Part shown: piece by piece, positions 6,596 to 23,503 of the stretch
How positions within the stretch are numbered: position 1 is the stretch's first letter
Layout of the letters: each line of letters opens with the position of its first letter
IMG/VR virus record: IMGVR_UViG_2648501797_000006
Location: 1 to 24,757 of that record
Reading direction: 5' to 3' (one strand)
Length of the DNA stretch: 24,757 nucleotides
From: a virus
Taxonomy: Duplodnaviria; Heunggongvirae; Uroviricota; Caudoviricetes
Made by a program: the position numbers and the translations under genes
The notes under the pieces: generated by a model
Told to the model about the DNA's origin: nothing
Databases searched by the model: none
The model's input: the letters and a program-made list of their open reading frames with translations, nothing else

Positions 6596-6720
6596 ATGCG
6601 GCACTCCTGGTTAAATTTCATTTTTCGCGGGTATAAAAAAACGATGGGGCGGGCAGTCCTGAAGACGTCAGGGTACAGAGATTTGACCCGCCCCTCCCCT
6701 CTGGCAGTGGGAACTGGTTC

Positions 6721-7071: not shown

Positions 7072-7595
7072 ATGTACTCCAATGAAGAAACCAGCGAAAT
7101 AGCAGCCTTCATTCGTAGTAAACCTTTTTCATCAACGCAGTAATGGATTCTTTGAAGAGTCGCAATCAATACAACTCACTAATGGAGAGACTTGTCTCAC
7201 GCATGAGACAAATTTCCCGTTTGATTTAATGGACACTATAGAGGGACAGAATGCCTTCCTCACTCGAATCACATCAATTAAGGAGGTTCAACATGTTTCA
7301 TTCCACAAGTCATCAGGCTGTAATTATGGCAGCATCAGTTTGTGCCACAGACCTTTTCCGCTTCACTTTGAGCCTGATTCATTTCTACCTGACCGGCTCG
7401 CCTCTATCTTTTTAATCCCCACTTTATCCAAATTGCATTGCCAGAATGCCGACAACAGACTGACATTCAAATCCTGACTACCTCCAATAGGCTGAGCATC
7501 CACCTATATAGTTTTAATTTTCATCAATCCATTTAACTATCGTTTAATTGTTGTCACATAGGATTCTGCCGTTTTTAACAATGCAGGATAATAAG

Positions 7596-7889
7596 ATGAA
7601 AAAAATGTTGTTTTCTGCCGCTCTGGCAATGCTTATTACAGGATGTGCTCAACAGACGTTTACTGTTGGAAACAAACCGACAGCAGTAACACCAAAGGAA
7701 ACCATCACCCATCATTTCTTCGTTTCGGGAATTGGACAGGAGAAAACTGTTGATGCAGCCAAAATTTGTGGCGGCGCAGAAAATGTTGTTAAAACAGAAA
7801 CCCAGCAAACATTCGTAAATGGATTGCTCGGTTTTATTACCTTAGGCATTTATACTCCGCTGGAAGCGCGGGTGTATTGCTCACAATAA
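7596..7889 (+). CDS. bor: Bor lipoprotein (lambda bor homologue)
   Basis: MKKMLFSAALAMLITGCAQQTFTV...ICGGAENVVKTETQQTFVNGLLGFITLGIYTPLEARVYCSQ is near-identical to lambda Bor as recalled; lipobox LITGC; AGGA upstream of ATG 7596. Confidence 0.9.
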   Translation: MKKMLFSAALAMLITGCAQQTFTVGNKPTAVTPKETITHHFFVSGIGQEKTVDAAKICGGAENVVKTETQQTFVNGLLGFITLGIYTPLEARVYCSQ

Positions 7890-7920
7890 TTGCATGAGTT
7901 GCCCATCGATATGGGCAGCT

Positions 7921-8382
7921 CTATCTGCACTGCTCATTAATATACTTCTGGGTTCCTTCCAGTTGTTTTTGCATAGTGATCAGCCTCTCTCTGAGAGTGA
8001 AATAATCCCGTTCAGCGGTGTCTGCCAGTCGGGGGGAGGCTGCATTATCCATGCCGGAGGCGGTGGTGGCTTCACGCACTGACTGACAGACTGCTTTGAT
8101 GTGCAACCGACGACGACCAGCGGCGACATCATCACGCAGAGCATCATTTTCAGCTTTCGCATCAGCTAACTCCTTCGTGTATTTTGCATCGAGCGCAGCA
8201 ACATCACGTTGGCGCACCTGCATGTCAGTAATTGTCGAGTTCGCCAGCTTCAGTTCTCTGGCATTTTTGTCGCGCTGGGCTTTGTAGGTAATGGCGTTAT
8301 CACGGTAATGATTAACCGCCCATGACAGACAGACGATGATGCAGATAACCAGAGCGGAGATAATCGCGGTTAATCTGTTCAT
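7921..8382 (-). CDS. Rz: Rz i-spanin
   Basis: [48 protein letters not shown]... near-identical to lambda Rz; start overlaps the R stop as ATGA. Confidence 0.95.
7980..8162 (-). CDS. Rz1: Rz1 o-spanin, nested in the +1 frame of Rz
   Basis: [55 protein letters not shown]... matches lambda Rz1 with lipobox and Pro-rich tract. Confidence 0.9.
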
Positions 8383-8855
8383 ACCTCAATCTCTCTGACC
8401 GTTCCGCCCGCTTCTTTGAATTTTGCAATCAGGCTGTCAGCCTTATGCTCGAACTGACCATAACCAGCGCCCGGCAGTGAAGCCCAGATATTGCTGCAAC
8501 GGTCGATTGCCTGACGAATATTGCCGCGGTCAATCATCGGTAAAGCGCCACGCTCTTTAATCTGCTGCAGAGCTACAGCGTCCTGGCTTTCTGGAGAAAA
8601 ATCTTTCAGGCCAAGCTGTTTACGGTAAGCATCCCACCAGCGTGAAAGAAGCTGGTAACGTCCGGCGGCTGTTGATTTGAGTTTGGGGTTTAGCGTGACA
8701 AGTTTGCGAGGGTGATCGGAGTAATCAGTGAACAGTTCACCACCAACAATAACATCATAACCGTGGTTACGTGTCGGTTGTCGCCCGTTATCCGTTCCTT
8801 CTGACCAGGCCACCATATCAAGGAAAGCTTTACGCTGAGGATTTAGTTCCTGCAT
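8379..8855 (-). CDS. R: Endolysin R (lambda R-type lytic transglycosylase)
   Basis: ...[77 protein letters not shown]... near-identical to lambda R. Confidence 0.95.
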
Positions 8856-8858
8856 AAA

Positions 8859-9185
8859 TTACTCCTTCGAGCTACCAAACTTGTTACCGATTACTCTCAT
8901 TGCCGCACCACGAATAGCATCGACCCCGATCAGCCCCACCCCACCACCAATAGCAACAGAAAGTGATTTAGGCCATCCGACATACTCAAGCGCGGATGCA
9001 AAGGTCAGTGTCAGAGCGCCACAGAGCAAAATCTCGAGCGTTTTTCGCTTCCAGCCGCCACCGCCACCAAAATAGGCAATACGTAAACCAGCCATAACGA
9101 TCGACATAATTACTGCGCCCAGTGGTGTGTCTCCACGCCACCAGCTCTGTACCAACTCCAGCCAGGTATTTGGGTTATGAGGCAT
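8859..9185 (-). CDS. Putative holin (three predicted TM segments)
   Basis: Immediately upstream of R; likely start at complement 9183..9185 (MPHNPNTW...) after GAGGTGAG; three hydrophobic segments. Not lambda S by sequence. Confidence 0.55.
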   Translation of the reverse strand: MPHNPNTWLELVQSWWRGDTPLGAVIMSIVMAGLRIAYFGGGGGWKRKTLEILLCGALTLTFASALEYVGWPKSLSVAIGGGVGLIGVDAIRGAAMRVIGNKFGSSKE

Positions 9186-9228
9186 TTCGTCATCTCTCAC
9201 CTCGCGATATTTGCGGGTGCTGTGTTGG

Positions 9229-9254
9229 AAATAAAAAGGCCACGCAACGTGGCC
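9229..9254 (-). terminator. Rho-independent terminator between the methyltransferase and holin genes
   Basis: Perfect stem GGCCACG-caa-CGTGGCC (9238..9254) followed on the minus strand by TTTTTATTT (complement of 9229..9237). Confidence 0.6.
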
Positions 9255-9261
9255 ACCAGAA

Positions 9262-10314
9262 TTATTTCCCCACCAGTTCACTTACCTCTTTCACCGTCTG
9301 ATTAAACCGCTCTGACTCAAGTTCAACACCTAACGCCCGACGCCCCAGCGCCATTGCTGCTTTTATTGTGGAACCGGATCCCATAAAGAAATCAGCAACC
9401 AGATCACCAGGTCGACTACTGGCATTGATTATTTGCCGGAGCATATCCGCCGGTTTCTCGCACGGATGTTTACCCGGGTAGAACTGAACGGGCTTATGCG
9501 TCCAGACATCGGTATAAGGCACAGAGACTGATACGGAGAAATAGCGCCGGAGAGATTTAAACTCATCCAGCAATTCAGAATATTTGCGATTCAGTGAATC
9601 ATAAGATGCCACCAGCTGGTGGTGTGGTTGTTCCAGTTGTTGTTCCTGAAACTTCTCTGCCGCTATACGGGAAAACAGTGCCTGTAACTTCCGATAGTCA
9701 GCCTCATTCGGCAACTGCCACTGACTGGCACCAAACCAGTGGGAAACCATATTTTTCTTATCTGTGGCTTCGGCAATTTGTTTTGCCGTTATACCCAGTT
9801 CGGCACGAGCATCCCTGAAATACGATATCAGCGGTGCCATTATGTGCTGTTTGAGTTCCCTTTCTTTTGCCGCATAGTCGTCACTTTTGCCGCGATATGG
9901 CCCCTGGTAATGTTCAGCAAACAGAACGCGCTCTGTGGCAGGAAAATATGCGCGCAGACTTTCTTTATTACACCCATTCCAACGTCCGGACGGCTTCGCC
10001 CAGATGATATGGTTAAGCACGTTGAAACGTTCACGCATCATGATCTCAATATCAGATGCCAGGCGATGCCCACAGAACAGGTAAAGGCTTCCGGCAGGTT
10101 TTAACACCCGCCAGAACTGGGCCAGACAGTGGTCCAGCCACTTAAGGTAATCTTCGTCCCCTTTCCACTGATTGTCCCAACCGTTAGGTTTCACTTTGAA
10201 GTAAGGCGGATCGGTAACAATCAGGTCAATGGAATCATCAGGCAGGGACTGAATAAAATGCAGGCAATCAGCGTTGATTAAATCAACACTGTTTATTTTT
10301 ACAGTATTTTTCAT
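9262..10314 (-). CDS. Orphan DNA methyltransferase (DPPY motif, beta-class N6-adenine or N4-cytosine)
   Basis: IVTDPPYF near the N-terminus and SAM-binding FFMGSGST near the C-terminus (motif IV before motif I). No partner endonuclease recognised nearby. Confidence 0.85.
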   Translation of the reverse strand: MKNTVKINSVDLINADCLHFIQSLPDDSIDLIVTDPPYFKVKPNGWDNQWKGDEDYLKWLDHCLAQFWRVLKPAGSLYLFCGHRLASDIEIMMRERFNVLNHIIWAKPSGRWNGCNKESLRAYFPATERVLFAEHYQGPYRGKSDDYAAKERELKQHIMAPLISYFRDARAELGITAKQIAEATDKKNMVSHWFGASQWQLPNEADYRKLQALFSRIAAEKFQEQQLEQPHHQLVASYDSLNRKYSELLDEFKSLRRYFSVSVSVPYTDVWTHKPVQFYPGKHPCEKPADMLRQIINASSRPGDLVADFFMGSGSTIKAAMALGRRALGVELESERFNQTVKEVSELVGK

Positions 10315-10464
10315 GGATCAGTAAGCGTAACTCTGGTAGGCTCACTCTGCTTTTGCGCTAAAGCAGTGGGCCGTGGTTCGCTTGTGACCAGTAAGCATGA
10401 GCGAATGGCTGGCAGGTGCTACCAACACCCACCAGCCGCCCATTTTCACAGCAGGAAACCGCCA

Positions 10465-10668
10465 TTACTGGCAGCGTCTGAATTTATTCCCGTACCCGCC
10501 GTTATCCTTCGCCAGACCCGCCAGAACTAACTGAGTCAGTATTAACTGGCACCGGGCTTCGCTTACTCCGGTAGTTCTCGTCATCATGCGTGGCGTTACC
10601 CACTTGTCAGCAGGTAAGAAATGAAGGACTGCGGCGGCGGTTTCTGTCATATCTTGCTGTTTTAGCAT
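10465..10668 (-). CDS. Possible small helix-turn-helix protein (67 aa); speculative
   Basis: Internal ATG at complement 10666..10668 preceded by AGGGA; RMMTRTTGVSEARCQLILTQLVLAGL resembles a winged-helix recognition region. No family recalled. Confidence 0.25.
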   Translation of the reverse strand: MLKQQDMTETAAAVLHFLPADKWVTPRMMTRTTGVSEARCQLILTQLVLAGLAKDNGGYGNKFRRCQ

Positions 10669-10790
10669 GTCTTTTTCCCTTCTGGTTAACATGACATACC
10701 AATAACTCTTGTCTAAAAAGCCAGCAAGATAAAAAGTCAGTATTCACGACCACCAGCGTGTTTACTGTGCTGCACCAAGTTTACAGGTAC

Positions 10791-10822
10791 AAAAAAACCG
10801 CTCAGCGGCGGGTTTAAGTTGT
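10791..10822 (-). terminator. Weak candidate bidirectional terminator
   Basis: aaaaaaaCCGCtcaGCGGcgggttt: short GC stem flanked by an A-run on one side and a T-run on the other (seven Ts on the minus strand). Confidence 0.3.
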
Positions 10823-10987
10823 GTGGCGAAGTAACCACTCTTAACACAGTAATCTAGAAAATGCGGACCGCGTTAGTGATTTTTATCTGTTTTTCCATTA
10901 TTTTTTTGCCACACAGCTTAAAACGAAAAATAAAGCAGGCGTTGCCAAACCTCACGGTGACAGTTGGCTTAGAATGAGGACATATTT

Positions 10988-12007
10988 TTGGATAAGTTTG
11001 ATGAGATTCATGTAGATATTGAATCTGAGCAGCAAGCCTTCGATTTGCTTGAAAGCTATCTTGATGGTTATGGTTTACCTGACAGTTTAAGTTTCAACGG
11101 ATGGCCAAACCTTACCATCAGATTAACCGGTGAAAAATTCAACAGATCGCTAACACCTTCAGTTATGAAGGGATTTGTTGAAATGCAAGCTCAAATCAAC
11201 AAATCATATGCCCTTGCCAAGTACGGTGTCCCTGACGTCCGCAAACTGACCAAAGAAGAACTTGATGCCCTAGAAATAGAAGTTACGGTAGAACAGGGTT
11301 CTTCAATAGTAGAAATCAACATTGATGGCTTTTTAACCAAACTCACACAGGAACTTGTTGGTAAAATGAACGCAACTGAGATCATGTTTACTGTTCTCGG
11401 CGCAGCAGTCATCTGGGGCGGAGTAACAGTATTTAAACGGTTCTTGGACAACCGTAAAGATATTCGCCTTGCAGAAATTGCTAAGGATGGAGAGAAAGAA
11501 CATCTCCGGACTATGCAGATCATGAGCGAGCAAGAAACTAAACGCCTGCGGGTTATTTCAGAAATGATTGCGGAAAAACCACTTCTCGATAACATGGACC
11601 GTATGTCGTATGACGCTAAAACCCAAATGGTCAAATCCTTTGTGCGTTCAGATAACGCTCAAATTGATGGCGTTACTATTGATTCTGAAATGGCGAAAGA
11701 GTTGGTTACGAATGCTCGTAGACGTTCATCAGAAATGAGGATTGATGGTATTTACCGAATTGAAGAAGTCAATAATACTGACCCAGAGAGTTTCAAAGTT
11801 AAGGTCCGACGCGTAGATACCGACCAACGTCTAACCTGCGTAGTTCAGGATGTTTTCCTTGATGAATCCGGAAACAAAGAAGCATTGCAGCGAGCTGAGT
11901 GGGAAAGAAAGCCTGTACATTTGAGCATTAACGCAAAACACGTCGATGGTGACATTAAGTCAGCAGTAATTCTCTATGTTCGAGATGTGGAACAAAAGCC
12001 CGAGTAA
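10988..12007 (+). CDS. Hypothetical membrane-anchored protein, 339 aa, no family recognised (candidate moron)
   Basis: Only start is TTG at 10988, with GAGGA 7 nt upstream; no in-frame ATG for about 60 codons although the N-terminus reads protein-like. One central hydrophobic segment (IMFTVLGAAVIWGGVTVF) in a charged, helix-rich sequence. Visibly AT-rich versus flanks (not computed). Converges on Q, stops 14 bp apart. Confidence 0.6.
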   Translation: MDKFDEIHVDIESEQQAFDLLESYLDGYGLPDSLSFNGWPNLTIRLTGEKFNRSLTPSVMKGFVEMQAQINKSYALAKYGVPDVRKLTKEELDALEIEVTVEQGSSIVEINIDGFLTKLTQELVGKMNATEIMFTVLGAAVIWGGVTVFKRFLDNRKDIRLAEIAKDGEKEHLRTMQIMSEQETKRLRVISEMIAEKPLLDNMDRMSYDAKTQMVKSFVRSDNAQIDGVTIDSEMAKELVTNARRRSSEMRIDGIYRIEEVNNTDPESFKVKVRRVDTDQRLTCVVQDVFLDESGNKEALQRAEWERKPVHLSINAKHVDGDIKSAVILYVRDVEQKPE

Positions 12008-12021
12008 TCGGGCTTCAATAA

Positions 12022-12414
12022 TCAATCTTTAATTTCGGGGTCCATCTCTAGACTAATTTCCAGCATCGATAGGCAGCCATCAATAAACCCCTCAGCCATC
12101 TGTATCTCAATGCGTATTAGTTTCTCATCCTTTTTACGAGCCTTGGCGAGCTTTCTTTTAGAGATACCGTATAGGTAATGGGCAACAAGAAGCGAATGTT
12201 CGTCCGGCCTTTTTTGCCTTAGACGAGCAAGACAACCTTCAATAATTAATGCATCACTATCTGAACATGCCTGACGTGTTTTGCTTGTATAGGGAAGAAG
12301 CCCTTTAAACCCAGCAGCTATAGGAGAATAGTCTACTCCTGAACTATCACTCGCCGCCCATGCTCCCCAACGATCCAGAACCATTTGAATATCACGCATC
12401 AACTTTCTCCACAA
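12022..12414 (-). CDS. Late-gene antiterminator Q (phage 82/21-type Q family)
   Basis: MRDIQMVLDRWGAWAA...IAAGFKGLL... matches the Q antiterminator family as recalled; true start may be the MRDIQ methionine 5 codons in. Confidence 0.8.
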   Translation of the reverse strand: MWRKLMRDIQMVLDRWGAWAASDSSGVDYSPIAAGFKGLLPYTSKTRQACSDSDALIIEGCLARLRQKRPDEHSLLVAHYLYGISKRKLAKARKKDEKLIRIEIQMAEGFIDGCLSMLEISLEMDPEIKD

Positions 12415-12416
12415 AA

Positions 12417-13412
12417 TCAGGCCAGCACGCCAATTGCCAGCGCACGATCGATAAAACGAAATATCAGCTCCAACTGAGAGCCATACTTTTCTTCAAATAC
12501 CACGGTATCCGCATGCAGCTCGTCGTGATGCTTTCTGCACAAAGGCAACACAAAAAGGTCATGCGCTTTTGTTCCCATTCCACCCTGACCGTAACCTATC
12601 AGGTGGTGGGGATCATCAGCGGGCTTTCCACAACATGCACACGGCTGTGTCTTAACCCAGCGCGTGTACTTTTCATTAACCCAGCGGCGACGTTTTGGGC
12701 GTAACATAAAAGACTCCGGCGACTCCGGATCCACTTTCAGCGCCAGCACCTTTTTCGCCTTATCCTGGATGATGCTGGTGGCAGGAACCGAAGGCACAAG
12801 GTCACTTTCCCGGGTGACAGACGGCACAACAGGCTTCGGTAATCTCAGTGCCTTACGGGCTGCACTTTCCGGTAAGGCATCCGCCAGGTCATTACGAATC
12901 AGCCACCAGCACAGTTCCGGCATTGTCACAACGTGACTGTCATCAAAACCGAGATCCCGACGCACAACAGACAACACCCAGCGGGCACAGTTATCCGTTG
13001 CCATTGATTCCAGCCGTTCCGTGAACTGATCGCGCAGCTGGTTATCGCAGTGCCAGCACAGACGGATTGCACCCGGAGCGTGTCGCATTGTGGTCATGTT
13101 CTCGCTGTGCCAGTCGGAATGAGGCCACTGGCAGCCTTTTTCACGAAGTAACCAGCTTTCAAGACATTCCACGCCACCAGCACGACGGATCACTGCCTCA
13201 TTGCGGAACACGGCCCGAACGGTAGGATCATCCGCCAGCGGTTGTGATGCCGCCGGAACGGCACCACTGGCGAAAGATGAATAACGTTCCGGCTCAGGCT
13301 CCAGCAGGACACGCCCCTGCATAAACAGGGGCATCAGCTCTGAACCTGGTCTGAACAATACGATCCCCATACGCGGGGCAATTTCAGGGGTCAGTAGTGC
13401 TCTCACGGTCAC
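12417..13412 (-). CDS. HNH-motif protein of the nin region (DUF968-like)
   Basis: C-terminal CACCGKPADDPHHLIGYGQGGMGTKAHDLFVLPLCRKHHDELH motif; GTG start abutting the upstream gene. Family name from memory only. Confidence 0.55.
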   Translation of the reverse strand: MTVRALLTPEIAPRMGIVLFRPGSELMPLFMQGRVLLEPEPERYSSFASGAVPAASQPLADDPTVRAVFRNEAVIRRAGGVECLESWLLREKGCQWPHSDWHSENMTTMRHAPGAIRLCWHCDNQLRDQFTERLESMATDNCARWVLSVVRRDLGFDDSHVVTMPELCWWLIRNDLADALPESAARKALRLPKPVVPSVTRESDLVPSVPATSIIQDKAKKVLALKVDPESPESFMLRPKRRRWVNEKYTRWVKTQPCACCGKPADDPHHLIGYGQGGMGTKAHDLFVLPLCRKHHDELHADTVVFEEKYGSQLELIFRFIDRALAIGVLA

Positions 13413-13413
13413 C

Positions 13414-14223
13414 TCAATGTACGGTATCGAGCAGCTTTAACAGCTCAGGGAATCGGGATTCGAAGAAATGCGGCTGCGTCTCGCGCGGATTTGCGGGACT
13501 GGTGATGTTCTTGCCGAACATGCAGCCTTTCGCTGTCAGTGACCAGAATTTTTTGATGTTGTTAATCGCGGTACGGCTGTATCGTTCGCGCTGCTCGACG
13601 ATCCCCAGCTTCACCATCTGGTGATATGCCTGATTAGCTGTCAGGCGGATACCATACTGCTTCAGCAATGCACTCAGTGACAGCGTGGGGCGGCTTGAGC
13701 CATCAGGCGCGTCAGCAGGAGCATCAATGGCATAGCGCGGTGCCAGATTCGGTAAGCCAACAGCCTCCTGGAGTTTCTGACAGGCCCCAAGCACTGAAGA
13801 GTTAGACAGGTTTAACTCCCTGCGCATAAAGTCCAGCAGAATCACTCCAGCCTGCATCTTGTCAGCAGCCTGCCCGGATAATTTTTCCGGTGCGCTGGTT
13901 ACCATATCGAAAGTACGGATCACCTTCAGATGGAATGACGGGCTGATCCACATTGCATAGGCATACACCAGTTCCTTGCAGACATAAGTTCCCCGTTCAT
14001 TTCCCCCATGAATCACACTCACCGGGTCAACACCCAAATTCTGGGTGTTGGTCAATTCATGAACAAGTTCAACAGTTTGTTGGCTGGAAAGAAACTTTCC
14101 TGGCTCCTTGGTTCTGGCATTTGCACCAGATGCTACTGCTGCGCGATGCAGATCGTTCAGGCTGTAACGCCCATAAGCATCACGACGAACTTCAATACCA
14201 TCAATGACCATCAGATTATTCAT
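13414..14223 (-). CDS. KilA-N domain antirepressor-like protein (Ant family)
   Basis: N-terminal MNNLMVIDGIEVRRDAYGRYSLNDLHRAA...KEPGKFL has KilA-N character; ATG at complement 14221..14223 follows AAGGAG. Confidence 0.7.
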   Translation of the reverse strand: MNNLMVIDGIEVRRDAYGRYSLNDLHRAAVASGANARTKEPGKFLSSQQTVELVHELTNTQNLGVDPVSVIHGGNERGTYVCKELVYAYAMWISPSFHLKVIRTFDMVTSAPEKLSGQAADKMQAGVILLDFMRRELNLSNSSVLGACQKLQEAVGLPNLAPRYAIDAPADAPDGSSRPTLSLSALLKQYGIRLTANQAYHQMVKLGIVEQRERYSRTAINNIKKFWSLTAKGCMFGKNITSPANPRETQPHFFESRFPELLKLLDTVH

Positions 14224-14242
14224 ACTTCGTTTCTCCTTTTGC

Positions 14243-14633
14243 TCAGGCGGCTGCACCCGCCGTTTTCTCGTACTTACTGATAGTGATCTCGACCTTCCCT
14301 TCCGGGATAACCGGTCCCCACTCCACCAGCATTCTTTTCACCTGACTGTCGTCTTCCCACACACCCGCGTGGGTCAGGGCGTCAAACAGCGCCTTGTTAT
14401 AGTTGTCCAGATCGCGGCTCCGGTTATCCGGAAGGAAACAACACGATCTCCACTGAAGCAGGTGCCGACGTTGGTTTCGGCAGACGACGTAACTGCTCAA
14501 CTATTGCTGCGCACGCCGCGCTCTGGAATTTTCGCCCCGCCGCGCTTATCAGGCTCTTACCAGCAAACGCCCCTTTGTTGGGGTGTCGCCAGTACGTGTT
14601 CACGCTGGGCGGGAAAGGCAGGATCAGCTTCAT
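14243..14633 (-). pseudogene. rusA: rusA Holliday-junction resolvase split by a 1-nt frameshift
   Basis: ORF 14424..14633 (MKLILPFPPSVNTYWRHPNKG...VEIVLFPSG-stop) is the RusA N-terminus; ORF 14243..14500 (+1 frame) carries ...FLPDNRSRDLDNYNKALFDALTHAGVWEDDSQV..., the RusA catalytic C-terminus. Shift maps to the TGTTGTTT run near 14431..14445. Confidence 0.75.
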
Positions 14634-14956
14634 ACTTTCAGGCCTCTCTCATGTAACCAGTGAGTTGCACGCAGCCTTGCGTTTTCCTCACCGGCAAGCA
14701 GTGAGCGGATAATCCCGACCGCCTCGCTGTCGTCGTCCTTCACCGCGGTATGAAGCGTGATCCCCCGGGCCACACCACGCTTTATCGTGATGACGCCTTT
14801 TTTCTCCAGTGCGCGAAGATGCTCCACCGCTGCATTCACTGAACGGTATCCCAGCATGGTTGCCACCTCCTGATTGGTTGGCGGAAAGCCACGTTCTTGC
14901 TGGTAAGAAATCAGCATATCCAGCACCTGCTGCTGACACTGAGTTAACGTCGTCAT
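14630..14956 (-). CDS. LexA N-terminal DNA-binding-domain protein (108 aa, no peptidase domain)
   Basis: MTTLTQCQQQVLDMLISYQQERGFPPTNQEVATMLGYRSVNAAVEHLRALEKKGVITIKRGVARGITL parallels the LexA winged-helix domain; the S24 domain is absent. Start overlaps the upstream stop as TAATG. Confidence 0.7.
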   Translation of the reverse strand: MTTLTQCQQQVLDMLISYQQERGFPPTNQEVATMLGYRSVNAAVEHLRALEKKGVITIKRGVARGITLHTAVKDDDSEAVGIIRSLLAGEENARLRATHWLHERGLKV

Positions 14957-15450
14957 TAAGCCCCCACGTAATTCCCTGACAGATACCATTCATCACCCGA
15001 TACAGCGCGCTTGCTGCTTTTCCGTAAGCACCGCTCTCGACGCGCCAGAAAGTTGTTTCGTTCTGGCTGGGAGTGACTTTCACGGAATGCCGCCATCCAC
15101 ACCGTTGCAGCACGACGGTATAAGCCCCTGGACTCCAGCTCTTCAGCCTGGCGGGTCAGGCACAAAATCACCCGGGGATCGTTAGTGCCGACATAGAAAT
15201 TGCGCACAGGTCTGGTTTCACGAACAGGTTGTGGTTCCGGCTCCTGCGCTCTCTCAGTCAGGCGCGGGAAATGTCTGCGTGTATCTCCTTCACAACGGTG
15301 AGCCACATGCCCACTCTGACGTAACTTGCTTGCTGACTGCAGAACGCGCTGCCGTGAGTAACCTGCAAAAGCATCCGCAATGTCTCCGGAAGTACAGCCC
15401 GGATGGGCTTCAATGAATTTCTGAACGTCATTCAAAAGACTCATGATCAC
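14956..15450 (-). CDS. Putative PerC-like transcriptional regulator
   Basis: C-terminal LESRGLYRRAATVWMAAFRES...RRERCL resembles the PerC/Pch signature as recalled; N-terminal half unassigned. Confidence 0.45.
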   Translation of the reverse strand: MIMSLLNDVQKFIEAHPGCTSGDIADAFAGYSRQRVLQSASKLRQSGHVAHRCEGDTRRHFPRLTERAQEPEPQPVRETRPVRNFYVGTNDPRVILCLTRQAEELESRGLYRRAATVWMAAFRESHSQPERNNFLARRERCLRKSSKRAVSGDEWYLSGNYVGA

Positions 15451-16388
15451 CCCCTGAATCCTGCCGGGATCTGGCTGTAGTCCACGTTGTCGTAACTGGC
15501 TTTGAAGTACGGGTCTTCACGTTTTTCTGTGTGCGTGCTGACGGACGGCGATAAGCGCAGGGAAAGCTCATCCCATTTTTCCCGCAACTTCGACGGGCTG
15601 AGCACGTTACGGCACCAGAACGGATCGCGGCTGACGCGGCTGTACATCTCGCAGATTTGTTTGTGAGTACGACCATCCTGCACACACATCAGGCGAATTT
15701 CGTTTGCCCATGCTGTCCAGTTCGGTTCTTTGGGACGAACCACCTCGCCGTCACATTCGGCGGCCTGCTCGTACAGGGCAATGATTTTTTTCCAGAGCCA
15801 CTGTGCGCAGGTCAAATCATCCTGCGTTCCCCACTGGCGCTTTTTAGGGCTGAATACAACCGCATCAGGATGGCGAGTTAAAAAATCCTGTTCAGCCGTC
15901 TGCGTGTCCGGTTGCGAAGCGTCCGGACGAGAAGGTTTTTTATCTGACGGATCATGTTTTGATTTTACTGACGGATCCCCGCCAGATTCTGACGGGTGAA
16001 AACCCGCTTTTTTGCCAGATTTCGACGCATCAAATTTTGACGTGTCAGATTTTGATGCGTCAGATTTTGACGGGTCAGAATCTGACAGTTGAGAAAATGC
16101 CGCTGCCTGAAGCTTCGCAACGTTAAGCTGATAAACATTCGACGCATTGCGGTTACCCTGGCGACGCGCCTTACGCGTTAACCAGCCTTCTGCTTCCAGC
16201 CGTGCGATAGCCGTTCTGACGGTACTCATCCCCGCGCCAATCTGACGGGCAATAGTTTCAATTGATGGCCAGCACACACCTTCGTCATTACTGAAATCAG
16301 CCAGGCGGGCCATAATTGCCACGCTGGATAATTTCATGCCTGACGCAGCGCAACCATCCCATACATAGCCGGTTAATTTAGTGCTCAT
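15447..16388 (-). CDS. Replication initiator (O-like function) with an N-terminal HTH domain
   Basis: N-terminus ...CWPSIETIARQIGAGMSTVRTAIARLEAEGWLTRK is a winged-helix replication-protein domain; the central low-complexity SDSDPSKSDASKSDTSKFDASKSG is encoded by tandem DNA repeats. Confidence 0.7.
   Translation of the reverse strand: MSTKLTGYVWDGCAASGMKLSSVAIMARLADFSNDEGVCWPSIETIARQIGAGMSTVRTAIARLEAEGWLTRKARRQGNRNASNVYQLNVAKLQAAAFSQLSDSDPSKSDASKSDTSKFDASKSGKKAGFHPSESGGDPSVKSKHDPSDKKPSRPDASQPDTQTAEQDFLTRHPDAVVFSPKKRQWGTQDDLTCAQWLWKKIIALYEQAAECDGEVVRPKEPNWTAWANEIRLMCVQDGRTHKQICEMYSRVSRDPFWCRNVLSPSKLREKWDELSLRLSPSVSTHTEKREDPYFKASYDNVDYSQIPAGFRG
15940..16095. repeat. Tandem iteron-like repeats (about 8 copies, ~15 bp period) inside the replication gene: probable ori
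   Basis: Repeated (C/T)CAGA(T/A)TTTGACG units, for example tcagattttgatgcg, tcagattttgacggg, tcagaatctgacagt, ccagattctgacggg. Boundaries approximate (within a few nt). Confidence 0.6.
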
Positions 16389-16736
16389 GACCGACCTCTA
16401 TTTCCCTGAATTTACGACGAAACTGTTCGAGCGGGCTGAAGCACTCATGCTCATAGCCTTCACGGAGGTAGATAACCCGTTGTGTTTCCGGCTCCCAACG
16501 AATGACTCTGACGGGCACTCCGTAGTGATCTTTGAACCAGCGGTTAACTTGTCGCAAAGGACTGTCTCCTTCTGCCGGTTGAAATCCCCCACAGCCCACT
16601 CAGCAAAGCTGTGGGTTACAATTTCCCTGTCACCTGGTACATTTACTGCATAGCAATACTCCACCTTCGCTTTTCCACCCGGTACAGGAAGCGCAATCAG
16701 TTGCGAGCGACGGTAGTGTGTTGTTAAACTGTTCAT
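16378..16736 (-). CDS. Hypothetical small protein, possibly split by a +1 frameshift at a G5/C5 tract
   Basis: ORF 16398..16736 has a protein-like N-terminus then a Ser-rich tail; ORF 16378..16599 (+1 frame, GTG start) has a protein-like C-terminus ([37 protein letters not shown]...). Frames cross at ccccc, 16586..16590. Confidence 0.35.
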
Positions 16737-17347
16737 GCGTTAGTTTCTCCACAACCAGAAGCAATCGACGCCACGACGCCCGGAGCTGCACACTCGCGGG
16801 CGTCATTACTTTCTGAAACGCAAAAAATTTTGTAGACAAGTGCTGCATGCTCCTGCAGCTTCGAAATTGAGAGGTACAGCTCGTCGTTAATTGCTGTCTT
16901 CTCATGCGGTTCCACTACACCGTCTTCGATTGCCGAACGAATCTGTCTGGAATAACTGCCAATCTGTTCAATGACTTCCAGCAGGCGCTGGTTAATATCG
17001 GCGTTGTCCACATCCTCGACGTCAGGAAGAGACACAAAGACGCCATTTGCAGACTGCGCCACAGCGTCAGCAATGAAGTGAGTTCCACCAGCACGTTGCA
17101 AAATCATTGCCCATCCCAGCGGGAAAATCTGATCGCCATCGGCACGAAGGCGGTTAAATAATGCGTTTTCTGTTACATCCAGCCAGTCAGCTGCTTCAGC
17201 GTAACCACCCGGCAACGCTGCGATAGTTTTTCTGACAGCTTTCACGTACCACTCAGGCTGTTTTTCTACTTTCCAGTGATGCTTACCCACGGTTAGCCTC
17301 ATCGTTCTGTGGTTTCTGTTAATCGATTTATCCATTAGATTTTTCAT
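16733..17347 (-). CDS. CII-like regulatory protein (YdaT/CP76-like, 204 aa)
   Basis: Sits directly downstream of cro; start MKNLMDKS at complement 17345..17347 overlaps the cro 3' end. Family assignment from memory, not verified. Confidence 0.45.
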
Positions 17348-17528
17348 AAAGCTCAGGTTTAAATGGCAACCGTCCGCAAGTTCTATATGCAGCTTCTGCT
17401 GCACGTCCTTTTGGAATTAACTGGCCCGGACGGTTTCGCCACTGATAAACGGCTTCAGTTGTTATGCCGAAAAAAGCAGCAACTTTCTCAATACTGCCGA
17501 AGTAGCTTTCGATATCGTCAGTTGTCAT
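17328..17528 (-). CDS. Cro-like HTH regulator (YdaS/DicC-like, 66 aa)
   Basis: Small HTH protein (...VAAFFGITTEAVYQWRNR...) divergent from the cI-like gene; GGAGGG 5 nt before the ATG. Confidence 0.65.
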   Translation of the reverse strand: MTTDDIESYFGSIEKVAAFFGITTEAVYQWRNRPGQLIPKGRAAEAAYRTCGRLPFKPELYEKSNG

Positions 17529-17625
17529 ACGCCCTCCAAACTAAGTTTTATTAGATGCTAATTACAAATCTATCTTTGGTCAATAAAAACTAAGATTACT
17601 TAGCAATTCAAGAAATGGTGCTCCT
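17529..17625. promoter_or_regulatory. Divergent immunity-region promoter/operator (OR-like)
   Basis: 97-bp gap between cro-like and cI-like genes with two AACTAAG motifs in near-palindromes: ctaagttttattag (17541..17554) and ctaagattacttag (17590..17603). Candidate leftward -35 TTGACC (complement 17579..17584) and -10 TAGCAT (complement 17555..17560). Confidence 0.55.
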
Positions 17626-18252
17626 ATGGAAACGGTTGGTCAGCGTATAAAAGCTCTGAGAAGAGTTACCGGAACGTCCCAGAAAGAATTGGGTAAATTT
17701 TGTGGAGTAAGCGACGTTGCTGTGGGGTACTGGGAGAAAGACATCAATACCCCTGGTGGGGAGGCACTTTCGAAATTAGCGAAGTTCTTCAATACGTCAA
17801 TAGATTACATTCTTTATGGTGCTGAGTTTGAAGGCAAACTCGTCACAAACATGCGCAGAGTTCCTGTAATATCGTGGGTTCAGGCTGGGCAGTTTACTGA
17901 GTGCAGGGCAGCAGAAGTGTTTAGTGAAGTGGACAAGTGGGTAGATACATCATTAAAGATTGGTGATAACTCATTTGCATTAGAGGTTAAAGGTGACTCC
18001 ATGACTAACCCTAATGGCCTCCCAACAATACCAGAAGGCGCAACAGTGATTGTAGATCCAGATGCAGAACCTCGTCATGGAAAAATAGTCATCGCTCGAC
18101 TTGATGGAACAAACGAAGCTACAGTAAAAAAATTAGTCATCGATGGCCCTCAAAAGTTTTTAGTGCCATTAAATCCTCGGTATCCCAACATCCCTATCAA
18201 TGGTAATTGCCTTATCATTGGTGTAGTCAAAGGAGTTCAATACGAACTCTAA
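17626..18252 (+). CDS. cI-like prophage repressor (HTH-XRE plus S24 LexA-like peptidase domain)
   Basis: N-terminal HTH (QKELGKFCGVSDVAVGYWE) and C-terminal autocleavage domain with GDSM serine and a downstream lysine (VKKLVIDG). Confidence 0.85.
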   Translation: METVGQRIKALRRVTGTSQKELGKFCGVSDVAVGYWEKDINTPGGEALSKLAKFFNTSIDYILYGAEFEGKLVTNMRRVPVISWVQAGQFTECRAAEVFSEVDKWVDTSLKIGDNSFALEVKGDSMTNPNGLPTIPEGATVIVDPDAEPRHGKIVIARLDGTNEATVKKLVIDGPQKFLVPLNPRYPNIPINGNCLIIGVVKGVQYEL

Positions 18253-18420
18253 GACCTCTCTTCTCTAACTAAGGCACCGAACTAAGAAAAGTTTGGTGTT
18301 TTCTCTTGCCATAATAACTAAGTTAAGTTAGATTTTATATCAAAGATAACGAACAGGCAGGACGCCCACGAAGTAGCCGCCTGGGGCATATGAAGTCCAG
18401 GATGATTCGTTGAGTCATGT
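18253..18420. promoter_or_regulatory. Candidate second operator cluster (OL-like) downstream of cI
   Basis: Three more AACTAAG copies at 18267..18273, 18280..18286 and 18316..18322 (the last followed by ttaagttag). Confidence 0.35.
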
Positions 18421-18458
18421 TGTGCCACCAGGCACTCATGTTAAAGCAGGTGTATGAA

Positions 18459-18734
18459 ATGAAAGTCCAGATTTTAAACAATAACTGTGAAGTCGTTTGG
18501 TCATACGACATAGCCGCCCCTGTAGATCAGAGCGGCGATAGCTGGACCAATGGGAAACATCAGATTATGGCTGGAGTTGTGTTCTCTTTACGCCGTGCTT
18601 TGGAACAGGCTGAAGTATTTCCATCAGACCCTGAATGGAAATGGCCTTTTTCTATTTGTCCAAATTCGGAGAGCACATTTCAGAAAATTGGTCAGAAAGT
18701 CGCACTCGAAGAGCATCAGCCAACTGTTTCCTGA
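18459..18734 (+). CDS. Hypothetical small protein downstream of cI (rex/sieB-equivalent position)
   Basis: ATG at 18459 (MKVQILNNNCEVVW...) with a weak AGG upstream; its 3' end overlaps a convergent ORF and reads less protein-like there. Confidence 0.3.
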   Translation: MKVQILNNNCEVVWSYDIAAPVDQSGDSWTNGKHQIMAGVVFSLRRALEQAEVFPSDPEWKWPFSICPNSESTFQKIGQKVALEEHQPTVS

Positions 18735-18897
18735 TTTTTTCAGGTAACTCGTCGGCATCGCAGAAACAACAACGCTCGATCATGTTGAAAGCCGATTCGT
18801 AGAACTGTTTCTGCTGAGTGTCGCTGAGACAGGAAAAGAGCGACGTTACGATGATTTTATTAATTGCATTATCAAGTTCTTTTTCATCAAAAGTCAT
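18652..18897 (-). CDS. Hypothetical small protein (81 aa), convergent with and overlapping the previous ORF
   Basis: AAGGAAAA 7 nt before ATG (complement 18895..18897); MTFDEKELDNAINKII...; no family recognised. Confidence 0.4.
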   Translation of the reverse strand: MTFDEKELDNAINKIIVTSLFSCLSDTQQKQFYESAFNMIERCCFCDADELPEKIRKQLADALRVRLSDQFSEMCSPNLDK

Positions 18898-19129
18898 TTG
18901 ATTTTCCTTTTATGTATACGGGCTTAAAAGGATACCACCGAGCCTGAAGTGGTGAAAAGACAGGCACATAACAGCTAAGTATTTTCAACCAGAGAGAATC
19001 CTTAGCGTTGTGGTGAATGCGGCTCAGCGCACGCGGGTTAAGGTTGAGGCTGACAGTCGACCTTCTGTAGATACCCACCCGCCTGGTGTGCAACCTTCGC
19101 CAGGCACCGGGAGGCACCCGGCACCACAA

Positions 19130-19197
19130 CTTTATGCTGTGTGTAGTCCTGGCGGTACCAGTTTGTACCCTTGCTTCCGGCTGGTACCGCTCTTTTT
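19130..19197 (+). ncRNA. Candidate DicF-like small RNA with an intrinsic terminator
   Basis: In a ~440-bp gap with no convincing ORF: perfect 10-bp stem gcggtaccag (19152..19161) / ctggtaccgc (19181..19190), 19-nt loop, then tcttttt. The segment ggcggtaccagtttgtaccc resembles the DicF core as recalled (ggcggtatcagttttactcc). 5' boundary not determinable. Confidence 0.35.
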
Positions 19198-19334
19198 ACA
19201 AAACAGAGAAGAGCATCACCGGACGACGGGCTCATAACCCAATCCATCCGGGCGGCTGCCACCGCAGGTGTTCTTCTCTGTTTTGTGGAGAAACTAATCG
19301 GCCTTGCAGGGTCGATATGATGAGGAGCAGCAAA

Positions 19335-19697
19335 ATGGCTAGCGAACGCAGTACTGATGTGCAGGCATTTATCGGGGAGCTGGACGGCGGCGTATTTGAA
19401 ACCAAAATCGGCGCAGTTCTCAGTGAAGTCGCTTCCGGTGTGATGAACACGAAAACCAAAGGTAAGGTCTCACTCAACCTGGAAATCGAACCATTTGATG
19501 AGAACCGTGTGAAAATCAAACACAAACTCTCATATGTTCGCCCGACTAACCGCGGGAAAATTTCCGAAGAAGACACCACCGAAACGCCGATGTATGTCAA
19601 TCGCGGTGGTCGCCTGACTATTCTGCAGGAAGACCAGGGACAATTACTGACTCTTGCCGGTGAACCTGACGGAAAACTCCGCGCAGCAGGTCATTAA
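19335..19697 (+). CDS. yfdP: YfdP-like protein (120 aa)
   Basis: GAGGAG 7 nt before ATG 19335; the track's upstream extension is GC-rich structured sequence. Assigned by length and position ahead of yfdQ/yfdR-like genes. Confidence 0.5.
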   Translation: MASERSTDVQAFIGELDGGVFETKIGAVLSEVASGVMNTKTKGKVSLNLEIEPFDENRVKIKHKLSYVRPTNRGKISEEDTTETPMYVNRGGRLTILQEDQGQLLTLAGEPDGKLRAAGH

Positions 19698-19762
19698 TAT
19701 CGTTCTTAATTAACTGATTATTTATCTCATCACTGAATATCTTTATATAGTGAGGACTTATT

Positions 19763-20587
19763 ATGTCTCAGAACTTAGACGCAACCGCAATTAATCAAAT
19801 CCATGCCCTTATTTCTGCTCAGGGTGTTAATGAAATTATCAGTAAGATTGGTGCCGATGCTGTGGCATTGCCTGAGAATTTCCGCATTCATGATCTGGAA
19901 AAATTTAATTTAAATCGCTTCCGTTTCCGTGGTGCGCTTTCCACTGCCAGCATCGATGACTTTACCCGTTATTCTAAAGATCTTGCAGATGAAGGCACCC
20001 GCTGCTTTATCGATGCTGATAATATGCGTGCCGTCAGTGTGCTTAACCTGGGTACTATTGATGAACCAGGTCACGCAGATAACACCGCCACTCTCAAACT
20101 GAAAAAGACAGCACCGTTCTCTGCTCTGTTGTCTGTTAATGGCGAGCGTAACTCCCAGAAATCACTGGCAGAATGGATTGAAGACTGGGCCGACTACCTT
20201 GTGGGCTTTGATGCTAATGGTGACACCATTCAGGCAACAAAAGCGGCTGCGGCGGTCCGTAAAATCACGATTGAAGCAAACCAGACCGCTGATTTTGAAG
20301 ATAATGACTTCAGCGGCAAACGCTCCCTGATGGAGTCTGTCGAAGCGAAGACCAAAGACATTATGCCAGTGGCATTTGAATTTAAATGCATTCCGTTTGA
20401 AGGTCTGAAAGAACGTCCGTTTAAATTACGCCTCAGCATTATCACTGGCGATCGTCCGGTACTGGTTCTGCGCATTATTCAGCTGGAGGCGGTGCAGGAA
20501 GAAATGGCTAACGAATTTCGTGATCTGCTTGTTGATAAATTCAAGGACAGCAAAGTAGAAACCTTTATTGGTACTTTCACCGCCTGA
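19763..20587 (+). CDS. yfdQ: YfdQ-like protein (DUF2303 family, 274 aa)
   Basis: 274-aa ORF with a good RBS (gtgaggactt before ATG); length and neighbourhood match the CPS-53 yfdPQRST module as recalled. Confidence 0.7.
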
Positions 20588-20598
20588 TTTCATTACTG

Positions 20599-20624
20599 CA
20601 AATGCCCCTGCGGGGGCATTTATG
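20599..20624 (+). terminator. Candidate hairpin terminator after the yfdQ-like gene
   Basis: ATGCCCC-tgcg-GGGGCAT perfect 7-bp stem (20602..20619) followed by ttat; short T-run so strength uncertain. Confidence 0.4.
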
Positions 20625-20714
20625 GAAACGTAATTTACTCAATAATCGCCGGATGGTGAGGGATTCTTTTTACCAGAATTCAGCGCGGTGCAGCGCATAT
20701 ACGTGGAGAACAAA

Positions 20715-21251
20715 ATGTCATTTATTAAAACTTTTTCCGGGAAGCATTTTTATTATGACAGGATAAATAAAGACGACATCGATATTAACGATATCGCGGT
20801 TTCCCTTTCAAATATCTGTCGCTTTGCCGGTCATCTTTCGCACTTCTACAGCGTCGCCCAACATGCGGTTCTTTGCAGCCAGCTGGTGCCGCAGGAATTT
20901 GCTTTTGAAGCGTTAATGCATGATGCAACAGAAGCGTATTGCCAGGACATTCCCGCACCACTGAAACGCCTTCTTCCTGACTATAAACAAATGGAAGAAA
21001 AAATAGACTCCGTAATCCGTGAGAAATACGGATTACCCCCAGTTATGAGTACGCCCGTGAAATATGCCGATCTCATCATGCTGGCAACCGAACGCCGCGA
21101 TCTCGGGCTTGATGATGGCTCTTTCTGGCCTGTACTGGAAGGTATCCCGGCAACAGAGATGTTCAACGTGATTCCACTGGCACCGGGCCATGCCTACGGG
21201 ATGTTTATGGAACGCTTTAACGAGTTATCGGAGTTACGCAAATGCGCATGA
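20715..21251 (+). CDS. yfdR: YfdR-like HD-domain phosphohydrolase (178 aa)
   Basis: GGAG 6 nt before ATG 20715 (MSFIKTF...); candidate metal-binding His/Asp residues (HFYSVAQHAV...MHDATEAY); length equals recalled YfdR. Confidence 0.7.
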   Translation: MSFIKTFSGKHFYYDRINKDDIDINDIAVSLSNICRFAGHLSHFYSVAQHAVLCSQLVPQEFAFEALMHDATEAYCQDIPAPLKRLLPDYKQMEEKIDSVIREKYGLPPVMSTPVKYADLIMLATERRDLGLDDGSFWPVLEGIPATEMFNVIPLAPGHAYGMFMERFNELSELRKCA

Positions 21252-21604
21252 ATGTTTTCGAAATGGAAGGGTTTCTTCGTGGGAGATGTGTACCGCGAGA
21301 TCTGAAAGTAAATGAAACAGATGCTGAATACCTGGTGCGTAAATTCGATGCGCTTGAAGCTAAATGTGCAGCACAGGAAAACAAAGTAATACCAGTGTCA
21401 ACTGAACTGCCACCAGCAAATGAAAGTGTTTTGTTATTCGATGCTAACGGAGAAGGCTGGCTAATTGGCTGGCGTTCTCTCTGGTACACCTGGGGACAAA
21501 AAGAAACCGGAGAATGGCAGTGGACATTTCAGGTCGGGGACCTTGAAAACGTCAATATCACTCACTGGGCAGTAATGCCAAAAGCACCGGAGGCTGGAGC
21601 ATAA
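21242..21604 (+). CDS. yfdS: YfdS-like protein (120 aa)
   Basis: Start overlaps the yfdR-like stop; length and order match recalled YfdS. Confidence 0.55.
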   Translation: MRMNVFEMEGFLRGRCVPRDLKVNETDAEYLVRKFDALEAKCAAQENKVIPVSTELPPANESVLLFDANGEGWLIGWRSLWYTWGQKETGEWQWTFQVGDLENVNITHWAVMPKAPEAGA

Positions 21605-23299: not shown

Positions 23300-23313
23300 C
23301 TTATTGATTTAAA

Positions 23314-23389: not shown

Positions 23390-23503
23390 CCTGAAAGGAC
23401 ATGTTCACGAACGTGAATCACGGTGGACAAGGTTAAAACTAACCGGGCGATGCGTCAATGGCCTTGTGAATCAAATGGCTACTTTTGCATCACCCGGTTT
23501 TAT

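What the first reader, a model, noticed from the sequence alone, without database searches (positions are those of the whole stretch)
14243..14633. rusA split by a single-base frameshift in a T-rich run
The RusA N-terminus and its catalytic C-terminus lie in adjacent frames offset by +1, with the switch near 14431..14445 (tgttgttt on the coding strand). Prophage rusA is a known cryptic suppressor of ruv defects, so inactivation is functionally relevant. A sequencing error is possible.
Basis: partly seen in the sequence, partly recalled or inferred. Interest (0 to 1): 0.4.

Follow-up and report, generated by a model that had tools for sequence, protein, structure and literature searches.

The report
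Frameshifted prophage rusA resolvase pseudogene
A prophage copy of the DNA-junction-cutting enzyme RusA is broken by one extra T; the same break recurs in hundreds of public E. coli and Shigella assemblies, so it is a real but ordinary, already annotated pseudogene.

Summary
On the minus strand, 14243..14633 is a RusA-family Holliday-junction resolvase gene split into a 69-codon N-terminal ORF and an out-of-frame C-terminal remainder. Alignment with intact alleles (390 nt, 129 aa) shows one extra T: TTTCCTCCGGAT has become TTTCCTTCCGGAT, at window 14432/14433. A TAA follows at 14424..14426. Every catalytic residue (D74, D76, K80, D95, equivalent to K-12 D70, D72, K76, D91) lies downstream, so the product should be inactive.

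It is not a sequencing error. The identical insertion is in 23 of 5,426 complete E. coli genomes. The exact 69-aa product occurs on 339 contigs. NCBI's annotation pipeline already labels the gene "frameshifted" in every copy inspected.

The allele forms only four near-identical haplotypes, yet it sits in at least six prophage architectures at five integration sites. This points to one mutation spread by modular phage recombination.

The window's own prophage has also lost about 15 kb of head and tail genes.

I found no signals for programmed recoding. The link to ruv suppression is extrapolated from a different copy, DLP12 rusA.

Verdict: an ordinary, already annotated pseudogene of a dispensable phage accessory gene. 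Interest is low.

The parts
14243..14633 (-). rusA pseudogene, 391 nt against 390 nt for the intact gene. Start ATG is 14631..14633 and the native stop TGA is 14243..14245.
   Evidence: The identical sequence is annotated 'RusA family crossover junction endodeoxyribonuclease, frameshifted' in RefSeq genomes.
14432..14433 (-). The lesion: TT on the coding strand where intact alleles have a single T (CCT CCG has become CCT TCC G). One of these two bases is the insertion.
   Evidence: Alignments A1 and A2; coordinates checked.
14424..14633 (-). Truncated reading frame of 69 codons: residues 1-67 are native, followed by Ser-Gly and a premature TAA at 14424..14426. It has no catalytic residues.
   Evidence: PHROG 34 hit on residues 1-67. 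The exact product is on 339 contigs.
14243..14431 (-). Out-of-frame remainder, codons 68-129 of the intact gene. It holds R73 (14414..14416), D74 (14411..14413), D76 (14405..14407), N77 (14402..14404), K80 (14393..14395) and D95 (14348..14350). These correspond to K-12 RusA R69, D70, D72, N73, K76 and D91.
   Evidence: Alignment to PDB 1Q8R/2H8C; codon coordinates; residue roles from PMC10956419.
14630..14956 (-). Upstream gene for a 108-aa LexA_DNA_bind-only protein. Its TGA overlaps the rusA ATG (ATGA), so the arrangement is translationally coupled.
13414..14223 (-). Downstream KilA-N gene with its own Shine-Dalgarno sequence (AAGGAG, 9 nt before the ATG). It starts 200 nt after the premature stop.

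Best explanation
This is a genuine, inherited loss-of-function allele of a phage RusA-family Holliday-junction resolvase. A single T was duplicated after codon 67, changing CCT CCG to CCT TCC G. Translation, coupled to the upstream LexA_DNA_bind gene through an ATGA overlap, reads 67 native residues plus Ser-Gly and stops at TAA 14424..14426. The DNA-binding arginine and all residues of the Mg2+-dependent active site are therefore never made, so no resolvase activity is expected. This last step is inferred from the mutational literature and was not assayed. The mutation arose once on a Ser72 variant of a very common allele. Resolvases at this position in lambdoid phages, between the replication genes and Q, are accessory. 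The lesion was therefore tolerated and carried passively into many mosaic prophages by modular recombination. In the window's lineage the prophage later also lost its head and tail genes, so the broken rusA is one of several decay lesions.
For: Single indel relative to intact alleles that are 98-99% identical; the rest of the gene is collinear. Repairing the frame gives a 129-aa protein that exists exactly on at least 1000 contigs. It matches Pfam RusA (3e-15), PHROG 34 (4.8e-58) and E. coli RusA structures 1Q8R/2H8C (2e-18), with D70, D72, N73, K76 and D91 aligned to D74, D76, N77, K80 and D95. Those residues are required for catalysis and R69 for DNA binding (PMC10956419). The identical +T is in 23 of 5,426 complete genomes from at least nine countries, from human, mink, pig and river sources. 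In each of the 16 genomes inspected the gene is annotated as frameshifted. The exact 69-aa product is on 339 contigs and in 557 index blocks, including Shigella sonnei. There are only four haplotypes, differing by 0-2 substitutions. They sit in prophages at thrW-proA, at the ybhC side, at the yjjG side, at tRNA-Ser/mtfA and at a DUF4760-adjacent site, with different integrases, repressors, Q genes, lysis cassettes and head types. The window's prophage lacks about 15.3 kb present in its closest relative, and terL is truncated. The lambda nin region, including the resolvase NinG/Rap, is dispensable for plaque formation (PMC10695390). rap or rusA occupies this slot in lambdoid phages (PMC4118853).
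Against: No expression or activity data exist. The allele shows no further decay: the C-terminal remnant differs between haplotypes only by two synonymous changes. A retained function could produce that pattern, though the numbers are far too small to distinguish it from a young age. None of the 51 isolated phage genomes carrying this gene has the +T. Viability of phages carrying it is therefore not shown; at about 1% frequency only 0.5 would be expected.
Confidence: 0.93

Rival explanations
1. Sequencing or assembly error in this window; the real gene is intact.
Against: The same insertion is in 23 independently sequenced complete genomes and on 339 contigs from NCBI, ENA and Logan assemblies, including short-read projects such as E. 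coli KTE213. The site is a T-to-TT change, not a long homopolymer. The allele is linked to a specific Ser72 substitution.
Confidence: 0.01
2. Programmed or leaky +1 ribosomal frameshifting, for example tRNA-Phe slipping from UUU to UUC at UUU-CCU-UCC. This would yield full-length RusA with P67L, so the gene would be expressed at a low, regulated level rather than being dead.
For: UUU-C allows P-site re-pairing after a +1 slip, and the 0-frame stop is only three codons downstream (sequence). The allele has spread widely without further disruptive mutations.
Against: The allele is rare, about 1% of genomes carrying the gene, and is a recent derivative of an intact gene. It is not conserved across divergent homologues. 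No stop or known hungry codon sits in the A site at the slip position. The only GGAG lies 10 nt upstream of UUU, whereas by general knowledge prfB-type stimulation needs about 3 nt (sequence). The local RNA fold is no better than shuffles (z -0.54).
Confidence: 0.02
3. A split gene with working pieces. Either the 69-aa N-terminal peptide has a role of its own (junction binding or a dominant-negative effect), or the C-terminal part is made by re-initiation and the halves reassemble.
For: The N-terminal ORF keeps its coupled start and is translated in principle. PHROG 1532 shows that stand-alone C-terminal RusA halves are repeatedly called in phage genomes.
Against: In the C-terminal frame the only start codon before V91 is the TTG at 14500. 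It has no Shine-Dalgarno sequence and is followed by 23 out-of-frame residues. Any restart after the TAA would begin beyond D74, D76 and K80. By general knowledge RusA is a compact single-domain homodimer (PMC10956419), so complementation between fragments has no precedent.
Confidence: 0.02
4. The inactivation was positively selected, for example because leaky resolvase is harmful to lysogens or exposes the phage to a host defence, rather than being neutral decay.
For: One allele reached hundreds of assemblies and at least six prophage backbones.
Against: It is found in only about 1% of carriers. About 2,100 genomes keep intact alleles at the insertion site, often in several copies. Hitch-hiking in a roughly 1.9-kb identical block is sufficient to explain the spread. 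I found no independent recurrent lesions at this site.
Confidence: 0.05

Closest known systems
RusA family resolvases of SfII/SfV/mEp460-type lambdoid phages (e.g. SfII_45 AGQ45535, SfV orf43, WP_000767113; 129 aa)
   Same: 98-99% nucleotide identity. Same neighbours (PerC, LexA_DNA_bind, rusA, KilA-N, DUF968, Q). Same length apart from one base.
   Different: Those genes are intact. The window has +T after codon 67 and Ser72 instead of Ile72.
E. coli K-12 RusA (YbcP) of defective prophage DLP12; PDB 1Q8R, 2H8C
   Same: Same Pfam family. It aligns over residues 3-120 with all catalytic residues conserved in the conceptual translation. It is also a silent gene of a defective lambdoid prophage.
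   Different: It is a distinct, much more divergent copy of 120 aa. The K-12 gene is intact but unexpressed, and it suppresses ruv only after an IS2 or IS10 insertion supplies a promoter (PMC10956419). The gene here is broken in its coding sequence.
Lambda Rap (NinG)
   Same: Same genomic slot between the replication genes and Q, and the same role of resolving branched recombination intermediates. It is dispensable for plaque formation (PMC4118853, PMC10695390).
   Different: Structurally unrelated protein family.
The identical RefSeq pseudogene entries (e.g. E5Q65_RS03190 in GTEN_24, ABRO93_RS19130 in strain 123636) and the deposited 69-aa products (e.g. CAD5636543.1, E. coli KTE213 A171_04180)
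   Same: 100% identical sequence and lesion.
   Different: None for the gene itself. The window's prophage additionally lacks about 15 kb of structural genes.

Membership tests
RusA Holliday-junction resolvase family (Pfam PF05866 / PHROG 34) | Profile match above the curated threshold | tested here: met
   The repaired protein scores 57.4 bits and the C-terminal ORF 47.5 bits, against a cut-off of 22.8. PHROG 34 gives E 4.8e-58. PDB 1Q8R gives E 2.2e-18.
RusA Holliday-junction resolvase family (Pfam PF05866 / PHROG 34) | Catalytic Asp-x-Asp, Lys and distal Asp (K-12 D70, D72, K76, D91) plus DNA-binding Arg69 | tested here: met
   Present as R73, D74, D76, K80 and D95 in the conceptual repaired translation. 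Residue roles are from PMC10956419. All are encoded downstream of the frameshift.
RusA Holliday-junction resolvase family (Pfam PF05866 / PHROG 34) | One uninterrupted ORF of about 120-130 codons encoding the whole domain | tested here: not met
   A +1 insertion at 14432/14433 leads to TAA at 14424..14426 after 69 codons. It is therefore a pseudogene of the family, not a functional member.
RusA Holliday-junction resolvase family (Pfam PF05866 / PHROG 34) | Position in the nin-like region between the replication genes and antiterminator Q of a lambdoid (pro)phage | tested here: met
   The gene order on the minus strand is HTH_36 replication-type gene, PerC, LexA_DNA_bind, rusA, KilA-N, DUF968, Q. 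The rule is stated in PMC4118853.
RusA Holliday-junction resolvase family (Pfam PF05866 / PHROG 34) | Mg2+-dependent symmetric cleavage of Holliday junctions, or suppression of ruv | not testable with these tools
   Needs biochemistry or genetics.
Frameshift pseudogene | Single indel relative to intact, nearly identical homologues, with a premature stop that removes essential residues | tested here: met
Frameshift pseudogene | The lesion is reproducible in independent assemblies, so it is not an artefact | tested here: met
   23 complete genomes; 339 contigs and 557 index blocks.
Programmed +1 ribosomal frameshift site (prfB-like) | Frameshift conserved across divergent homologues | tested here: not met
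   It is in 23 of about 2,244 genomes carrying the gene, and all copies fall into four near-identical haplotypes. It is absent from all 51 phage genomes with the gene.
Programmed +1 ribosomal frameshift site (prfB-like) | Slippery codon with a stop or hungry codon in the A site, plus a closely spaced upstream Shine-Dalgarno-like stimulator or a downstream structure | tested here: not met
   By inspection of UUG UUU CCU UCC GGA UAA, the stop is not adjacent to a slippery codon, and GGAG lies 10 nt upstream. The fold z-score is -0.54. Leaky slippage cannot be excluded without a reporter assay.

The most novel reading that the evidence does not exclude
The +T allele is not dead. Low-frequency +1 slippage at UUU-C would give full-length RusA(P67L). 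That would supply a trickle of an otherwise hazardous junction nuclease, which could explain why the allele spread through many prophage backbones without further decay.
Probability: 0.03. Interest if true: 0.5.

Novelty: already known. Interest (0 to 1): 0.1.

Why it matters
It matters little for biology. It is one more decayed accessory gene in a defective prophage, and public annotation already flags it. Its practical value is as a marker. A single, unambiguous +T lesion, shared by only four near-identical haplotypes, has been carried into at least six prophage architectures and five chromosomal sites. This gives a clean natural tracer of modular exchange among lambdoid prophages. It also adds population-level support for the view that the nin-region resolvase is dispensable. 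For annotation, the 69-aa 'crossover junction endodeoxyribonuclease RusA' entries in protein databases should not be read as functional enzymes.

Tried and rejected
1. Antisense gene. The + strand ORF 14204..14656 (150 aa) spans the whole locus. It exists only because the +T fuses two antisense open stretches, and in intact alleles it is interrupted. I rejected it as a by-product.

2. Stimulatory RNA structure at the shift site. The minimum free energy is -17.8 kcal/mol, z -0.54 against shuffles. There is none.

3. Internal restart producing a catalytic fragment. No ATG or GTG lies in the C-terminal frame before V91, and the TTG at 14500 has no Shine-Dalgarno sequence.

4. A selection test on the untranslated remnant. 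Only four substitutions separate the frameshift haplotypes (P52P, R73R and E93E synonymous; P9H non-synonymous). This has no statistical power.

5. Search for the +T allele in isolated phage genomes. There was no match among 50,697 records. This is uninformative at about 1% allele frequency and 51 carriers.

6. Terminator or promoter scan for polarity. No terminator-like site was found on the coding strand between rusA and kilA-N. The 200-nt untranslated stretch is G-rich and C-poor (70 G, 43 C), which is unlike a Rho-utilisation site, so I propose no polarity effect.

7. Quasi-palindrome templating of the insertion. TCCGG-ATAA-CCGGA flanks the site, but the extra T makes the palindrome less perfect, not more. 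The insertion is therefore not templated by it.

Full report
**1. What is in the sequence**

On the minus strand, ORF 14424..14633 (69 aa, MKLILPFPPSVNTYW...VEIVLFPSG) and ORF 14243..14500 (85 aa) lie in adjacent frames. The second ORF, after 23 out-of-frame residues, reads PDNRSRDLDNYNKALFDALTHAGVWEDDSQV.

The C-terminal ORF hits Pfam RusA PF05866 (E 3.3e-12). The N-terminal ORF alone hits nothing in Pfam, but it hits PHROG 34 'RusA-like Holliday junction resolvase' (E 3.7e-21).

Joining the two frames gives a 129-aa protein. It covers the whole Pfam profile (E 3e-15) and PHROG 34 (E 4.8e-58). It also aligns to the E. coli K-12 RusA crystal structures 1Q8R and 2H8C over residues 3-120 (E 2e-18).

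**2. Where and what the lesion is**

I aligned the window against two intact genes: SfII gene 45, and the intact gene of E. coli GPEC1035 (WP_000767113; 390 nt, 129 aa). The alignment shows exactly one indel. Intact TTT CCT CCG GAT has become TTT CCT TCC GGA TAA.

The extra base is one of the two T's at coding positions 201/202, which is A14432/A14433 on the + strand. The frame is therefore offset by +1 because of an insertion. The premature stop is TAA at 14424..14426.

However, the mutation is a T-to-TT duplication in CCTTCC, just 3' of TGTTGTTT. The frame is restored by removing a base, not adding one.

A linked substitution lies 14 nt downstream: ATC (Ile72) has become AGC (Ser72). All 23 frameshifted copies in complete genomes carry it. 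Intact Ser72 alleles exist. The exact repaired Ser72 protein is on at least 1000 contigs. The lesion is therefore one mutational step from a common functional allele.

**3. Consequence for the protein**

Residue correspondences come from the alignment to 1Q8R and the codon coordinates:

| K-12 RusA | This gene | Window coordinates |
|---|---|---|
| R69 | R73 | 14414..14416 |
| D70 | D74 | 14411..14413 |
| D72 | D76 | 14405..14407 |
| N73 | N77 | 14402..14404 |
| K76 | K80 | 14393..14395 |
| D91 | D95 | 14348..14350 |

D70, D72, K76 and D91 are required for endonuclease activity, and R69 for DNA binding (review PMC10956419). All of them lie downstream of the frameshift.

The translated product is 67 native residues plus Ser-Gly. 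No in-frame ATG or GTG exists in the C-terminal frame before V91. Re-initiation therefore cannot recover the active site. Loss of activity is inferred, not measured.

**4. Not an artefact**

- A 41-mer centred on the TT can only seed on sequences that contain the insertion. It finds 23 of 5,426 complete E. coli genomes, all at 100% identity.
- About 2,244 genomes carry the gene, and about 2,100 match the intact version of the site.
- In all 16 of those genomes whose annotation I inspected, the RefSeq record calls the gene 'RusA family crossover junction endodeoxyribonuclease, frameshifted'.
- The exact 69-aa product is recorded on 339 contigs and in 557 index blocks. These come from NCBI, ENA and Logan assemblies, and include Shigella sonnei and E. 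coli KTE213.

**5. One origin, many backbones**

Across 24 fetched carrier loci plus the window, there are only four haplotypes of the frameshifted gene. One is identical to the window. The other three carry, respectively:
- P52P;
- E93E;
- P9H together with R73R.

Yet the carriers differ in integrase and attachment site:

| Carriers | Site and features |
|---|---|
| window, 123636, 124611 | thrW-proA |
| GTEN_24, MJ-T, EC554, 23AR1183, 23CRST046 | DUF4760-adjacent site, HK97-type heads |
| EC23-1020, C11 | Same site, lambda Nu1/A-type packaging |
| EC147566 | tRNA-Ser/mtfA |
| GN06156, KK05-19 | ybhC side, extra Dam methylase |
| AVS0247, 1436 | yjjG side |

Further combinations appear in draft and metagenome contigs.

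The window and the GTEN_24 group are identical over only about 1.9 kb around rusA (13224..15091). They diverge outside that block. This is the pattern expected if one mutant module is passed around by recombination among lambdoid phages and resident prophages, a process documented experimentally (PMC3945230).

**6. Context in the window**

The window is the integrase-proximal part of an SfII/SfV/mEp460-like prophage inserted at tRNA-Thr(CGT) next to proA. Its closest relatives are strains 123636 and 124611, at 99.9% identity. The window lacks two blocks of the 123636 prophage, 10.1 kb and 5.2 kb. These blocks hold the tail, baseplate, head and portal genes and the 3' end of terL. Remnants, a ClpP gene and an IS1 element lie to the left.

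The prophage cannot make particles. The rusA frameshift predates this deletion, because it is shared with undeleted relatives.

**7. Why it was tolerated**

rusA or the unrelated rap (ninG) occupies the slot between the replication genes and Q in lambdoid phages (PMC4118853). The whole lambda nin region, including ninG, can be deleted or knocked down without loss of plaque formation once Q is supplied (PMC10695390). A nonsense-type lesion here is therefore expected to be nearly neutral for the phage.

For the host, the K-12 precedent is that prophage rusA is silent. It suppresses ruv only after an IS element supplies a promoter (PMC10956419, PMC4118853).

**8. Rivals**

- *Sequencing error* is excluded by section 4.
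- *Programmed +1 frameshifting.* tRNA-Phe could re-pair after a UUU-to-UUC slip. But the allele is a rare, recent derivative. No stop or hungry codon abuts the slippery codon. No closely spaced Shine-Dalgarno-like element or significant structure is present. I give it about 2-3%.
- *Functional fragments* or *selected inactivation* cannot be excluded, but nothing supports them.

**9. Comparison with the known, and verdict**

By sequence, catalytic motif and position, this is a RusA-family gene. It fails the requirement of an intact ORF, so it is a pseudogene of that family. It is identical to entries already labelled as such in RefSeq.

Novelty: already known. Interest: low (0.1). The only mildly instructive aspect is the clean tracing of one lesion across many mosaic prophages.

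Noticed in passing
window 4408..4615 and flanks (1..4409; 4611..24757): Relative to the closest genome (strain 123636, locus L004) the window lacks two blocks of about 10.1 kb and 5.2 kb, holding tail, baseplate, head and portal genes. A 208-bp scrap of the tail-terminator gene is left between them. The junctions overlap by 2 and 5 bp. terL is cut to 499 aa (4605..6104, minus strand) from 577 aa. The prophage is structurally defective.
   Followed up: partly
window 19010..19320 (+): A second gene annotated 'hypothetical protein, frameshifted' in related genomes (ymfH-like, next to yfdP). It is split here into 75-aa and 49-aa ORFs. Most of about 1,800 full-length matches in E. coli genomes have the same length as the window, and a few are one base longer. 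The 'frameshifted' form may therefore be the common one.
   Followed up: partly
window 10988..12007 (+): A 339-aa ORF in opposite orientation, between the Q antiterminator and a DNA methyltransferase. It hits PHROG 6191 (unknown function), has no PADLOC hit and only a sub-threshold Pfam hit. In other prophages with the same early module, genes found at this position after Q include a TIR-domain protein (GN06156, KK05-19) and a DUF262 plus HEPN-like nuclease pair (AVS0247, 1436). This suggests a cargo or defence hot spot.
   Followed up: partly
PHROG library, seen with the repaired protein of window 14243..14633: PHROG 1532, labelled 'unknown function' (80-position profile), matches residues 56-129 of RusA at E 1.1e-38. 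That family appears to consist of stand-alone C-terminal halves of RusA genes, so truncated or split rusA genes recur in phage genomes.
   Followed up: no
window 14411..14431 (coding strand TCCGGATAACCGGA): A short palindrome (TCCGG-ATAA-CCGGA) starts right at the insertion. In intact Ser72 alleles it extends to a perfect CTCCGG-ATAA-CCGGAG, and in the common Ile72 alleles it does not. The Ile72-to-Ser72 change could be a quasi-palindrome-templated mutation. The +T itself is not templated by it.
   Followed up: no
window 14204..14656 (+): A 150-aa antisense ORF spans the whole rusA locus. It is open only because the +T joins two antisense open stretches, and it is interrupted in intact alleles. 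It is a chance by-product.
   Followed up: yes
window 23314..23389 (-) with integrase at about 22181..23299 and proA at about 23504..24757: tRNA-Thr (anticodon CGT) lies immediately next to the prophage integrase and proA. By general knowledge this is the thrW attachment site used by the Shigella serotype-converting phages SfII, SfV and SfX.
   Followed up: partly
window 12417..13406 (-): A DUF968/HNHc_6 protein is encoded two genes downstream of rusA. The literature notes that DUF968 is found fused to recombinases, including RusA, in other phages (PMC4118853). This hints at a functional link within the module.
   Followed up: no
window about 7596..7890 (+) and about 1452..2149 (-): An iss/bor-type serum-survival lipoprotein gene sits after the lysis cassette. 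An IS1 element lies in the degraded left end. Both coordinates were mapped from the annotation of strain 123636.
   Followed up: no
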